A stretch of DNA of 64,000 nucleotides from Acidobacteriota bacterium (GTDB lineage Bacteria; Acidobacteriota; Blastocatellia; RBC074): positions 166,471 through 230,470 of the forward strand of contig JANRKX010000046.1 in the NCBI GenBank assembly GCA_033763255.1. The letters run 5' to 3'. The notes beneath the pieces were generated by a model that did not search any database, had not been told where the DNA came from, and saw only the letters and a program-made list of their open reading frames with translations. This document shows positions 50,101 through 52,758 of this stretch, piece after piece. Each line of letters starts with the position of its first letter. Within the stretch, counting starts at the first letter, position 1. The translations under genes were made by a program, and so were the position numbers.

Positions 50101-52758
50101 GCGACGTTTACCTGCGCGCCGCCGACCGGCGTCAATCCGAGCAATAATCCGCAAGGCAATGGCGGTTCTCTGGTTTGCACGGCTCCGCTATTGTCGGCCA
50201 ACGCACCTAATAACATTGCAGCAATTGATGTCACAGTTTTCATTGACCCGGCGACGAAAGCCAATCTGGTGGACACGGCGACGTTTGACGCCACCATCAA
50301 CAACATCAATCGTCCGGTTTCCGGTTCGACGACGTTGACCACGCCTGTGGCTGCGACTTCCGATCTGGCGCTGACCAAAACGCACACCAATTCCGCCGGA
50401 GTTGTTGGCGGTCCGGTGACAGCCGGAACCAGCGGCAATTTGTACAACGTCACAGTCACCAACAATGGGCCGAGCGCCGCGCAGATGTTCAATCTGGTGG
50501 ACACGCTGCCGCCTTTCCAGAAAATCACCAACATCCAGGTTGGGCGATTGGATGGTAATGGCAATTTCGTGACGCCGAATGCCAAAGACGGAAATGGCAA
50601 TCCGAACGTCATCTGCACGGCGGTTCCGCCAGTTGGTTCTCCGGGCAATACCACAAGCGTGACATGCACGGCTGCGGAATTGCCGCCGAACAAGAATCCT
50701 GATGGAACGGTCAATCCGGCAGGCACGTTCATTGTTCGCCTGACCTTCACGCAAGATGCGTTTACGCCGCAACCGATTCCGATTTCATATCAGAATTGTG
50801 TGACGGCGACCTCGATGTCCACAGACCCTGTTCCGGGGAACAACACCAATATCTGCGACACGGTTCCGGTCGCTTTTGCGGCTGATTTATCGGGAACGAA
50901 GACGGCGGAACCTGACCCGGTGATTGCTGGCAACCTGTTGACGTATACCATCACGGCCAACAACGCCGGGCCAAGCGCGGCTTTCAATCTGATGATTACT
51001 GATCCGCTGCCTGTTGGGACGGTGTTTATCTCGGCAGTGGCTTCGGCTGGGGCGACTTTGATGACGCCTGCTGTGAACGCCAATGGCATTGTCAAAGCTA
51101 CCTGGGATGCGGCTGGCGGCACGGCGGGCGGTTTGACCGGGCCGGGCGTCGTTCGCACGCTGACCATCGTTGTTCGCGTTTGTCCGGACTTCCAGCAGAT
51201 TCGCAACCTGACGGATGCTCAAATGTGCGTGCCGAACATGTTGAACACGGCAACGATCAGTTCGGATACGACCGATCCGAATCCGAATAACAACACGGCG
51301 TCGTTCACTTCGACGGTGCAGGCGCAATCCGATCTTTCGATCAGCAAAACGGTCGCGCCGAATCCAGCGCCTTACAGCACGACGGGCACGCCCTCGAACG
51401 TTACTTACACGTTGACGTTTGCGAATGCCGGCCCGTCCAATGCCAATGGCGTGACGATTGTGGACGTGTTGCCGAAAGGTTTCACCGTTGTTGGAACACC
51501 GACTTCGACAGTTCCGGGAACGACGTTCACCATCACGACGGCGGGAACAGACATTACGACCGTTGTCGCCAATCTGGGAGTTTTGGGCGCGGCGAATCAA
51601 TGCCAGTTCACGCGACCGATCAGCGGCACAGTCACGATCGTGGCGCGCGTGCCGATCAAACATCCGACAATTACCGTGACCAACACGGCGACGATTGCTT
51701 CGACCAACTGCCTGCCCGAAACTGGCACGCTGGCGGTGCAGACCAATCCGTTGTCGGGCGAACCGGCGATCATCACGCCGGGCACGGGAATGTTGGCCAA
51801 CAACCGCGCCTTTGCCGATCTGCGAGTCATTCCGCCGACAACGACTCCGGGCGGTGCGTTCCCTGCATTGTCCGAAGCCAGCGATCAGAAAGAAGGCTCC
51901 GTGCTGTTCTATCCGATCTACACTTCGGACGCGACCAACTCCAACTCGCAAAACACGCGCCTGAATATCACCAACACATCAGGAACCGAAAAAGTCACCG
52001 TTCACCTGTTCGCGGTGGATGGCGCGAGTTGTGCCGTGCTGGACGCTTTCCTGTGCCTGACGCCGAATCAGACGTCCTCGTTCCTGGCTTCGGACTTCGA
52101 TCCGGGCAACACGGGCTACCTGATTGCGGTCGCGGTGGATGACAACAATGGAATTCCGCGTGCCTTCAACGAATTGATCGGCGATGAGTACGTCAAATTC
52201 TCTTCGGGGCATCAAGCCAATCTGTCTGCGGTGGCGATTGCTTCATCAATGATTTTCCCGGCGGGTCCGAACCCGAATGTGACGACTGCGACGTTGCGAT
52301 TCGACGGTATGAATTACAACCGACTGCCGCGCATTCTGGTTGCCGACAGTATCGGTAGTCGTGCCGAAGGCAATTCGACCATGTTGGTCGTCAATCGCAT
52401 CGGCGGTGACATGACCACATCGGGCGCATTGATCGGCAACCTCAACGGCCAGTTGTACGATGATGCCGAAAACTCGTTCAGCTTCACGGCGAACGTGGCC
52501 TCGTGCCAGTTGCGTCGTTTGCTGGACAACACTTTCCCGCGTACTTTCACGCCGTTTGATCGAGTGCTTCCGGCTGGTCGCACAGGTTGGATGAAGTTCT
52601 GGACGGTCAACGACACTGCATTGTTGGGCGCACAGATCAATTTCAATCCGAATGCGAGTTCGTCCGCAGGCGCATTCAATCAGGGACACAACCTGCATCA
52701 TCTGACGCTGACCGATGCAGTGACACTGGTGATTCCTGTGTTCATTCCGTCCTGTTAA
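47170..52758 (+). CDS. Giant secreted DUF11 (conserved repeat domain) protein with the same ~290-aa C-terminal domain (terminal Cys) as the LTD protein at 30644-33562
   Basis: Signal peptide [30 protein letters not shown]. More than 10 DUF11-type units (L.ISKT....V..G....Y.I...N.GPS.A.N...TD.LP.G..F). The C-terminus runs [16 protein letters not shown]...[26 protein letters not shown]. Confidence 0.8.
   Translation: [1862 protein letters not shown]

What the first reader, a model, noticed from the sequence alone, without database searches (positions are those of the whole stretch)
51880..52758. Shared ~290-aa C-terminal domain ending in a terminal cysteine on two unrelated large secreted proteins
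The last ~290 residues of the DUF11 giant (…[16 protein letters not shown]…[30 protein letters not shown]…[20 protein letters not shown]…[10 protein letters not shown]…[12 protein letters not shown]…VFIPSC*) are ~60% identical to the last ~290 residues of the LTD protein at 32680-33562 (…SDQKAGSVLVFPIYSS…VFPPGC*). In both proteins the domain follows a DUF11-type module and ends with Cys as the final residue. Too long for a sorting tag, it looks like a conserved functional or anchoring domain, possibly a new cell-surface attachment or processing domain. The invariant terminal Cys could be a site for lipidation or thioester/isopeptide chemistry; that is inference. I do not recognise it as a named domain.
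Basis: seen in the sequence. Interest (0 to 1): 0.65.

Follow-up and report, generated by a model that had tools for sequence, protein, structure and literature searches.

The report
Unnamed disulfide-stapled C-terminal domain, Blastocatellia
Two unrelated secreted proteins in this soil acidobacterium end in the same ~300-residue all-beta domain, which belongs to a large unnamed family found on hundreds of different secreted proteins; its final cysteine most likely closes an internal disulfide bond and is not a chemical attachment site.

Summary
Both end in Cys plus a stop codon.

The domain matches no Pfam, NCBIfam or PDB sequence. It belongs to a very large family: 1389 clusters at 50% identity and at least 557 genomic loci, essentially all in Blastocatellia (Acidobacteriota) MAGs, with several to more than 10 copies per genome.

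In 436 of 456 distinct instances the domain sits at the extreme C-terminus. It follows either a signal peptide alone or very diverse passengers: DUF11/CLIPPER stalks, LTD, subtilases, ice-binding-like, SBBP propellers, HYR, PKD and He_PIG.

AlphaFold gives a confident all-beta model (pLDDT 94.6). It has no convincing PDB neighbour apart from an ASRT/TM1070-like beta-sandwich.

The terminal Cys is conserved, but it co-occurs and co-disappears with Cys59, as do C51/C209 and C92/C130. Direct-coupling analysis ranks the 59-292 pair 26th of 41041. N-terminal and internal copies lack both cysteines. I therefore read the terminal Cys as half of a structural disulfide, not a lipidation or thioester site.

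The most likely role is a shared non-catalytic targeting or retention (binding) module. That part is inference.

The parts
51847..52758 (+). Copy 1 of the unnamed domain: conserved linker '[11 protein letters not shown]', 292-aa core and stop codon, at the C-terminus of the DUF11/CLIPPER giant
   Evidence: AF2 model pLDDT 94.6, pTM 0.91, all-beta. No Pfam or NCBIfam hit.
32648..33562 (+). Copy 2 of the same domain: linker 'PGLAIPAASES', 293-aa core and stop codon, at the C-terminus of the LTD protein
   Evidence: 55% identical to copy 1, E 6e-115.
52054..52056 (+). Cys59 codon of copy 1, inferred disulfide partner of the terminal Cys
   Evidence: Present in 432 of 456 instances. Concordant with the terminal Cys in 451 of 456. 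DCA rank 26 of 41041. Coordinates.
52753..52755 (+). Terminal Cys292 codon of copy 1 (TGT), followed by TAA
   Evidence: The Cys is last in 342 of 436 C-terminal copies; 1-3 residues follow the end of the domain match in 90 more.
52030..52032 (+). Cys51 codon of copy 1, inferred partner of Cys209 (52504-52506)
   Evidence: C51/C209: both present in 412, both absent in 34, discordant in 10. Neighbouring pair D47-S208 is DCA rank 2. Copy 2 lacks both.
52504..52506 (+). Cys209 codon of copy 1
32855..32857 (+). Cys59 codon of copy 2
   Evidence: Same alignment column as C59 of copy 1.
33557..33559 (+). Terminal Cys293 codon of copy 2 (TGC), followed by TAA
32954..33070 (+). Segment of copy 2 bounded by Cys92 (32954-32956) and Cys130 (33068-33070), the optional third cysteine pair of the family, absent from copy 1
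   Evidence: C92/C130: both present in 330, both absent in 116, discordant in 10. DCA rank 15. Coordinates.
47119..51846 (+). Passenger of the giant: signal-like N-terminus (probable true start at the MRTTHTL Met, 47170), nine DUF11/CLIPPER repeats and an RrgB-like isopeptide module
   Evidence: DUF11 was renamed CLIPPER, an isopeptide-bonded stalk domain of fibrillar adhesins (PMC12617251).
30644..32647 (+). Passenger of the LTD protein: signal-like N-terminus, two lamin-tail domains and a ~145-aa module with a sub-threshold DUF7927 hit

Best explanation
The two C-termini are copies of an undescribed extracellular domain of about 305 residues. It is built from two packed beta-sandwich subdomains. 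It is exported by Sec and folds in the oxidising periplasm or exterior.

Two or three disulfides hold it together: C51-C209, C59-C(terminal), and an optional C92-C130. The invariant last cysteine is the partner of Cys59. The bond ties the final beta-strand back onto the N-terminal sandwich, so the chain can simply stop there. It is a structural staple, not a site of lipidation, thioester or isopeptide chemistry.

The family is hugely expanded in Blastocatellia. It occurs alone behind a signal peptide, or as the last domain of proteins with very different passengers: isopeptide-bonded stalks, LTD, subtilases, ice-binding-like domains and propellers.

The most likely job is that of a shared, non-catalytic binding module that delivers or retains these proteins at a common ligand, probably a cell-envelope or matrix glycan or polymer. 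This would be analogous to LysM, SLH or CBM modules.

Shown: homology, family size, position, fold confidence, the cysteine covariation pattern and the passenger diversity. Inferred: that the cysteine pairs are disulfides, and the binding/retention function.
For: Homology and family size:
- 55% identity, E 6e-115.
- 814 clusters at 90% identity.
- 1389 clusters at 50% identity with E<=1e-3, 743 with E<=1e-30.
- At least 557 genomic loci, several per MAG.

Unnamed: no hit in Pfam, NCBIfam or PDB sequences for the domain, for 47 members, or for ten other full-length carriers.

Fold:
- AF2 pLDDT 94.6, pTM 0.91, about 22 strands.
- The C-terminal half alone still folds: pLDDT 90.3, pTM 0.81.
- The best PDB neighbour is the 8-stranded sandwich of TM1070/ASRT (prob 1.0, TMt 0.62-0.69). 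That superfamily is predicted to bind small molecules or sugars and is topologically related to CBM4 (PMC2739507). Weaker hits are PA14 and a CE2 esterase chain.

Disulfide inference:
- In 456 distinct instances the least discordant cysteine pairs are 59/terminal (5), 51/209 (10) and 92/130 (10), against 20-23 for cross pairs.
- mfDCA ranks are 26, 110 and 15 of 41041; cross pairs among the four core cysteines rank 122-1200 and pairs involving C92 or C130 rank far lower.
- Fifteen internal or N-terminal copies lack all four core cysteines. P0175 and P0179 keep only 51/209.
- Copy 1 has exactly C51, C59, C209 and C292. Copy 2 has exactly C59, C92, C130 and C293.

Architecture pointing to a binding or targeting module:
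- The domain is terminal in 436 of 456 instances, but also N-terminal, internal and multi-copy.
- One multi-copy protein has a weak, sub-threshold SLH match (E 0.00097) downstream of its last copy.
- 121 of 222 listed members are stand-alone size, and 94 of those have a signal-peptide-like N-terminus, typically '...LAA|DPG'.
- Passengers include Peptidase_S8, Ice_binding, SBBP, HYR, PKD, LTD, DUF11, He_PIG and Calx-beta.
- The histidines of the GHNLH motif are not conserved in the Cys-less copies, which argues against a universal catalytic or metal site.
Against: - No model coordinates were available, so S-S distances could not be measured. The disulfide pairing rests on covariation, which phylogeny can inflate: the Cys-less copies may form a single clade.
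- No ligand is known, and the structural similarity to ASRT/CBM-like sandwiches is generic (7-10% identity).
- The near-exclusive extreme C-terminal position across functionally unrelated passengers is more typical of sorting or secretion domains than of CBMs.
Confidence: 0.5

Rival explanations
1. The domain is a folded C-terminal secretion or sorting domain, working like the T9SS C-terminal domain. A dedicated, still unknown outer-membrane machinery of Blastocatellia recognises it to export and/or attach many different cargo proteins, and may then remove it.
For: - Extreme C-terminal position in 436 of 456 instances.
- One constant domain behind functionally unrelated passengers within the same genome: subtilase, ice-binding-like, SBBP propeller, adhesin stalks.
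- Many copies per genome.
- From my own knowledge, not tested here: these passenger families usually carry C-terminal sorting signals in other phyla.
- A disulfide-bonded domain must cross the outer membrane folded, as T9SS and T2SS cargo does (inference).
Against: - At about 300 aa it is three to four times the size of known sorting domains.
- About half of the listed family members are the domain alone behind a signal peptide, so there is no cargo.
- Cys-less copies occur N-terminally, internally and in tandem.
- No recurrent machinery gene lies within 6 kb in 83 loci.
- There is no hit to T9SS CTD or other sorting models in Pfam or NCBIfam.
Confidence: 0.17
2. The domain is a self-assembling subunit of a surface layer or fibre. 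Stand-alone paralogues form the lattice or filament, and proteins carrying the domain at their C-terminus are incorporated through it and displayed. This would resemble tip adhesins that carry a pilin domain.
For: - Abundant stand-alone secreted paralogues sit next to fused ones in tandem gene arrays (L056, L059, L060, L065, L070, L079).
- The C-terminal module is constant while the N-terminal passengers vary.
- The top, weak Foldseek hits include two-domain pilins (Spy0128, GBS pilin).
Against: - The pilin hits have TM about 0.2 and are not significant.
- No chaperone, usher or sortase genes recur nearby.
- Multi-copy proteins carrying internal copies fit a polymerising subunit poorly.
- No oligomer prediction could be run.
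Confidence: 0.12
3. One reading: the invariant terminal Cys is a reactive site, either lipidated or forming a thioester or isopeptide-type covalent link to the cell surface or to a target.
For: - The Cys is the last residue in 342 of 436 C-terminal copies and within 3 residues of the end in 90 more.
- The carrier proteins are rich in isopeptide-bonded CLIPPER domains.
Against: - The terminal Cys is gained and lost together with Cys59 and is directly coupled to it.
- Each window copy has an even number of cysteines that fall into the predicted pairs.
- There is no hit to thioester-domain or sorting-signal models in Pfam or NCBIfam.
- No C-terminal hydrophobic helix or sorting motif is visible in the sequence.
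- No processing enzyme recurs nearby.
- From my own knowledge, not tested here: bacterial lipidation targets an N-terminal lipobox Cys, not a C-terminal one.
Confidence: 0.05
4. The domain is a catalytic or toxic effector, for example a metal-dependent enzyme using the conserved histidines (H42, H111, GHNLH) or a pore-forming beta-sandwich, and not a passive module.
For: - Several histidines and acidic residues are at least 90% conserved in the C-terminal subfamily.
- Stand-alone secreted forms exist.
- Low-ranking fold hits include peptidylglycine monooxygenase, cupins and Cry toxins.
Against: - Those fold hits have TM about 0.2.
- The histidines are poorly conserved in the Cys-less copies: H42 47%, H111 58%, H270 16%, H273 53%.
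- The domain is appended to proteins that already carry their own catalytic domain, a subtilase.
- No immunity-like gene recurs downstream.
Confidence: 0.06

Closest known systems
ASRT / ASRAH superfamily (Anabaena sensory rhodopsin transducer; Thermotoga TM1070, PDB 1nc7; Pfam DUF1362/ASRT)
   Same: An eight-stranded beta-sandwich of about 120 residues. It is the only PDB fold that Foldseek matches with probability 1.0 (TMt 0.62-0.69), both with the whole model and with the C-terminal half alone. The superfamily is predicted to bind small molecules or sugars and occurs fused to secreted enzymes (PMC2739507).
   Different: Only 7-10% identity and no Pfam hit. The domain here is about 300 aa, is disulfide-stapled and is extracellular. 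ASRT is a cytoplasmic single-domain tetramer. Its signature residues (W7, H25, C29, N32 of TM1070) were not tested.
Non-covalent surface-retention and carbohydrate-binding modules (LysM, SLH, CBMs, PA14)
   Same: These are non-catalytic modules appended to many unrelated secreted enzymes and adhesins. They occur in one or several copies, at either end, and also stand alone. That matches the architecture spectrum seen here. There is a weak fold hit to the PA14 sugar-binding domain of the Marinomonas adhesin.
   Different: No sequence relationship and no known ligand. The domain is much larger than LysM or SLH, and its bias towards the extreme C-terminus (96%) is stronger than is usual for CBMs.
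T9SS C-terminal domain (Por_Secre_tail) of Bacteroidota
   Same: A folded beta-sandwich at the extreme C-terminus, shared by dozens of otherwise unrelated secreted proteases and adhesins in one genome.
   Different: The T9SS domain is about 70-100 aa, is never found alone or internally, and is removed by the PorU sortase. The domain here is about 300 aa, is often stand-alone, gives no model hit, and no T9SS genes were seen near it.
Terminal domains of fibrillar adhesins with DUF11/CLIPPER stalks (PMC12617251)
   Same: The DUF11 giant has the standard layout: signal peptide, a stalk of isopeptide-type CLIPPER repeats, then a distinct terminal domain.
   Different: The terminal domains catalogued there are known adhesive or sorting Pfam families. 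This one is in no library, and it also sits on non-adhesin passengers.

Membership tests
Any Pfam-A or NCBIfam family | Profile HMM match above the curated threshold | tested here: not met
   No hit at E<=1 for copy 1 or copy 2 alone in Pfam. NCBIfam gave only noise (E 0.078). Forty-seven members scanned individually against Pfam gave only scattered noise. Ten other carriers scanned against NCBIfam had no model over the domain. The precomputed Pfam column is '-' for stand-alone members.
ASRT/ASRAH superfamily (PF07100) | Eight-stranded beta-sandwich fold like TM1070 | tested here: inconclusive
   Foldseek prob 1.0, TMt 0.62-0.69, rmsd 3.4-4.7 A, 7-10% identity. This is fold-level resemblance only.
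ASRT/ASRAH superfamily (PF07100) | Sequence-profile relationship and signature residues (Trp at the start of strand 1; His/Cys ligand pocket) | tested here: not met
   No Pfam ASRT hit. Signature residues were not examined in 3D because no coordinates were available.
T9SS C-terminal sorting domain | A domain of about 70-100 aa matching Por_Secre_tail / TIGR04183-type models, always terminal and always attached to cargo | tested here: not met
   No model hit. The domain is about 300 aa. Stand-alone and internal copies exist.
Sortase/exosortase-type C-terminal sorting signals (LPXTG, PEP-CTERM, MYXO-CTERM and similar) | Short motif, then a hydrophobic transmembrane helix, then a basic tail at the C-terminus | tested here: not met
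   The sequence ends ...[10 protein letters not shown] and ...FIVPVFPPGC*. AF2 predicts a beta-strand followed by the Cys. There is no hydrophobic helix or basic tail and no NCBIfam sorting-signal hit.
Autotransporter (T5SS) beta-domain | C-terminal 12-stranded outer-membrane beta-barrel ending in an aromatic residue, without disulfides | tested here: not met
   No Pfam autotransporter hit. Foldseek returns soluble sandwiches, not outer-membrane barrels. The domain has 2-3 conserved cysteine pairs and ends in Cys.
Thioester / intramolecular isopeptide domains (TED, CnaA/CnaB, CLIPPER) | Match to TED or Cna-type models, with the reactive Cys paired with a Gln (thioester) or a Lys-Asn/Asp pair with a catalytic acid | tested here: not met
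   No Pfam or NCBIfam hit over the domain. The terminal Cys covaries with another Cys, not with a Gln. Whether conserved K106, N32, N97 or D74 could form an isopeptide could not be checked without coordinates.
Carbohydrate-binding module / lectin | Demonstrated glycan binding, or membership of a CAZy CBM family | not testable with these tools
   Only generic beta-sandwich resemblance. No CBM Pfam hit.

The most novel reading that the evidence does not exclude
The domain is the recognition and anchoring module of a so far undescribed, Blastocatellia-specific surface-display or outer-membrane export pathway. It would be a functional counterpart of the T9SS C-terminal domain or of dockerin. Dozens of proteases, adhesins and ice-binding-like proteins per cell would be routed to, or docked on, the cell surface through it, possibly onto a lattice built from the stand-alone paralogues.
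Probability: 0.2. Interest if true: 0.8.

Novelty: new variant of a known kind. Interest (0 to 1): 0.5.

Why it matters
Blastocatellia are abundant soil, biocrust and wastewater bacteria that are almost unstudied experimentally. One unnamed domain marks a large part of their secreted and surface proteome: at least 1389 sequence clusters, up to 10 or more genes per genome, on proteins of up to 5807 aa.

Naming it as a new Pfam or NCBIfam family would immediately improve annotation of hundreds of 'hypothetical proteins'. It would also define a testable set of co-targeted exoproteins. If it proves to be a docking or sorting module, it would reveal how this phylum displays proteins on its surface.

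The negative result matters too. The eye-catching terminal cysteine is most simply a disulfide staple, so there is no need to invoke new C-terminal chemistry.

Tried and rejected
- **Domain libraries.** Pfam and NCBIfam scans of the domain, the whole proteins, 47 family members and ten other carriers found nothing over the domain.
- **PDB sequence search.** A profile search gave only noise, E 0.08.
- **Internal duplication.** hhalign found no sequence relationship between the two halves, E 0.55.
- **Partner genes.** ORFs from 83 loci (flanks of 6 kb, 10 kb for L001-L003) were clustered. Apart from antisense shadow ORFs, only a clade-specific 350-aa family (11 loci) and CrcB (9 loci) recur. No sortase, exosortase, transglutaminase or secretin was found. 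The context of stand-alone member P0052 is housekeeping.
- **First DCA run.** Gap artefacts from fragments dominated it. It was repeated on near-gapless sequences.
- **Literature.** Searches for Blastocatellia with DUF11, and for C-terminal domains of secreted proteins, found no description of the domain.
- **Rejected readings.** Autotransporter barrel, LPXTG/PEP-CTERM-type tag, thioester domain and polymorphic-toxin tip; the reasons are in the membership tests and rival explanations.
- **Could not do.** Measure Cys-Cys distances, because model coordinates are not exposed. Scan whole genomes for co-distributed machinery.
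Full report
**1. Observation**

The window has a 1879-aa ORF (47119-52758, +) with nine DUF11 repeats and a 972-aa ORF (30644-33562, +) with two lamin-tail domains. The interval 51880-52758 translates in frame to the quoted sequence ending VFIPSC*.

The correct one is 32681-33562. The two C-terminal regions align over their whole length with 162/294 identities (55%), three gaps and E 6e-115. 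tblastn shows these are the only two copies in the window. Both genes end Cys-stop.

The similarity starts 11 residues further upstream, in a conserved linker: [11 protein letters not shown] versus PGLAIPAASES. The module in front of the LTD copy is only a sub-threshold DUF7927 match (E 0.014).

**2. Family**

Neither copy matches Pfam-A or NCBIfam. The same holds for 47 homologues scanned one by one and for ten other full-length carriers. A profile search of PDB sequences finds nothing.

The family is nevertheless very large:
- 814 clusters at 90% identity.
- 1389 clusters at 50% identity at E<=1e-3, of which 743 at E<=1e-30.

Named sources are Acidobacteriota MAGs annotated as Blastocatellia or Blastocatellales. 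Some MAGs are labelled Heliomicrobium/Heliobacteriaceae, which is a Firmicutes genus. Their loci are 57-79% identical to the window copy, and several are syntenic with the Blastocatellia loci, so I suspect mislabelling.

The best genomic match is a MAG called Acidobacteria sp. RBC074: its locus L004 (contig CADECP010000026.1) is 100% identical over the domain. The reconstructed coordinates do not line up simply with that contig, so the window may come from another record of the same or a near-identical genome. That MAG has at least five copies. Another MAG (Co_metawrap_1988) has more than ten in the 80 loci kept.

**3. Architecture**

Across 456 distinct full-length instances, 436 lie at the extreme C-terminus. 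The Cys is the last residue in 342, and 1-3 residues follow the end of the domain match in 90 more.

The N-terminal extension ranges from about 39 residues (a signal peptide only) to more than 2000. Of 222 listed clusters, 121 are stand-alone size with a Met start. Ninety-four of those have a signal-peptide-like N-terminus, typically ...LAA|DPG.

Passengers in front of the domain are very diverse:
- DUF11/CLIPPER stalks, LTD, Peptidase_S8 with P-domain, Ice_binding with DUF7933, DUF7948 with SBBP propellers, HYR and PKD.
- He_PIG/BACON, and Calx-beta with a beta-helix.

Genes for family members often sit in tandem. DUF11 has recently been renamed CLIPPER and shown to be an isopeptide-bonded stalk domain of fibrillar adhesins (PMC12617251). 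The giant therefore has the classic layout of signal peptide, stalk and terminal domain.

The domain is not obligatorily terminal. About ten proteins carry two or three copies at N-terminal and internal positions between Big_3_5 or DUF11 modules. At least two of these proteins are from Blastocatellia. One (P0128) has a weak, sub-threshold SLH match (E 0.00097) downstream of its last copy.

**4. Structure**

AlphaFold2 with a 47-sequence alignment gives pLDDT 94.6 and pTM 0.91. The model is all-beta with about 22 strands. Residues 126-292 modelled alone still fold (pLDDT 90.3, pTM 0.81), so there are two subdomains.

Foldseek against the PDB finds no global neighbour: the best hits have TM about 0.2 and are pilins, lectins and vicilins. 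The only probability-1.0 match, with both the whole model and the C-half, is TM1070 (1nc7; TMt 0.62-0.69, 7-10% identity).

TM1070 is the Thermotoga orthologue of the Anabaena sensory rhodopsin transducer. It founds a beta-sandwich superfamily predicted to bind small molecules or sugars and is topologically related to CBM4-2 (PMC2739507). Weaker hits to the C-half are the PA14 sugar-binding domain, a CE2 carbohydrate esterase chain and the lambda gpJ tip. BFVD gives only generic jelly-roll similarity.

**5. The terminal cysteine**

Four cysteine columns are nearly invariant in the C-terminal subfamily (C51, C59, C209, C292), and two more are frequent (C92, C130).

| Pair | Both present | Both absent | Discordant | mfDCA rank (of 41041) |
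|---|---|---|---|---|
| C59 / terminal Cys | 429 | 22 | 5 | 26 |
| C51 / C209 | 412 | 34 | 10 | 110 |
| C92 / C130 | 330 | 116 | 10 | 15 |
| Cross pairs among the four core cysteines | | | 20-23 | 122-1200 |

The counts come from 456 instances. The DCA ranks come from 418 near-gapless sequences, Meff 269. Pairs involving C92 or C130 rank far lower. The neighbouring pair D47-S208 ranks 2, and positions 52, 54 and 61 also couple to 292.

Fifteen internal or N-terminal copies lack all four core cysteines. P0175 and P0179 keep only C51/C209. P0126 keeps C59 together with a Cys just after the last strand.

The window itself illustrates the rule. Copy 1 has exactly C51, C59, C209 and C292. Copy 2 has exactly C59, C92, C130 and C293.

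The simplest reading is three disulfides, with the terminal Cys bonded to Cys59 so that the last strand is pinned to the N-terminal sandwich. This is an inference from covariation. I could not measure distances because the model coordinates are not exposed, and the Cys-less copies may be a single clade.

**6. Function**

No processing enzyme or other gene recurs near family members. Clustering ORFs from 83 loci (flanks of 6-10 kb) gives only antisense shadow ORFs, a clade-specific 350-aa family and CrcB. A stand-alone member sits among housekeeping genes. The window flanks are ordinary.

The histidines of the striking GHNLHHL motif, and H42 and H111, are conserved in the C-terminal subfamily but not in the Cys-less copies (16-58%). 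That argues against a universal catalytic or metal site.

Four features together fit a non-catalytic binding module of the LysM/SLH/CBM type that brings many exoproteins to one ligand:
- stand-alone secreted forms;
- multi-copy forms;
- variable position;
- attachment to proteins that already have their own catalytic or adhesive parts.

This is my preferred mechanism, at about 0.4-0.5. The strong bias to the extreme C-terminus across unrelated passengers keeps a T9SS-CTD-like sorting domain alive (about 0.17). The many stand-alone paralogues in arrays keep a self-assembly/display model alive (about 0.12). Reactive-cysteine chemistry (about 0.05) and an enzymatic or toxin role (about 0.06) are poorly supported.

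**7. Comparison and novelty**

The domain fails the membership test for every family I could test: Pfam and NCBIfam in general, ASRT by sequence, T9SS CTD, sortase/exosortase tags, the autotransporter barrel, and thioester or isopeptide domains. It works most like known accessory binding or retention modules.

I rate it a new variant of a known kind: an unnamed, lineage-specific, strongly expanded extracellular domain family.

Interest is 0.5. It is valuable for annotation and as an entry point into the Blastocatellia surface proteome. It would be high only if it turns out to define a new display or secretion pathway.

Noticed in passing
window 42447-47042 (+): Four tandem paralogues (350, 351, 345 and 366 aa) with signal peptides. 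All end '...NIGAAxCVQ'. None matches Pfam, NCBIfam or PDB sequences. One or more copies lie directly upstream of the DUF11-plus-domain gene in 11 related loci, often after the He_PIG giant. This looks like a clade-specific conserved gene cluster of unknown function.
   Followed up: partly
window 35582-42328 (+): A 2248-aa secreted protein with nine He_PIG Ig-like repeats, BACON domains and a beta-helix-like N-terminal region. It ends in three ~140-aa repeats finishing '...GYFAP'. It is syntenic with the DUF11 giant in several MAGs.
   Followed up: partly
P0121-P0128, P0236 (homologues from elsewhere): A Cys-less subfamily of the same domain occurs two or three times per protein at N-terminal and internal positions between Big_3_5 or DUF11 modules. 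P0128 has a weak SLH match (E 0.00097) downstream of its last copy.
   Followed up: yes
L007-L010, L013-L016, L034, L035 and others: MAGs carrying 57-79% identical copies of the domain, several with the same flanking genes, are labelled 'uncultured Heliomicrobium sp.' or Heliobacteriaceae, which are Firmicutes. All other carriers are Blastocatellia/Acidobacteriota. This is probably a taxonomy mislabel in those records.
   Followed up: partly
L003 3114-10879 and Pfam labels: In one MAG the DUF11 giant orthologue is split into about eight consecutive short gene calls, so the assembly is probably frameshifted. There the domain is annotated as a separate 292-aa 'hypothetical protein'. The same output shows PF01345 under its new name, CLIPPER.
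   Followed up: no
window 30644-33562, residues 287-304: The LTD protein has a sub-threshold NCBIfam 'choice-of-anchor X' match (E 5.5e-4, 19.6 bits against a cutoff of 25). 'Choice-of-anchor' families are, to my knowledge, defined by occurring with a variety of C-terminal anchors.
   Followed up: no
window 52931-54379 (-); 3494-4816 (-); 5094-6851 (+); 15740-18043 (-); 21933-25166 (+); 58677-61688 (-): Other notable genes in the window: a ThiS-ThiF-rhodanese fusion directly downstream of the giant, a serpin, a multihaem cytochrome, a protein combining cytochrome c, Cu2_monoox_C and TIG domains, a Ser/Thr kinase fused to WD40 propellers, and a TPR-CHAT protein next to a subtilase.
   Followed up: no
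window 19283-21133 (+): A 616-aa ORF with no Pfam or NCBIfam match.
   Followed up: no
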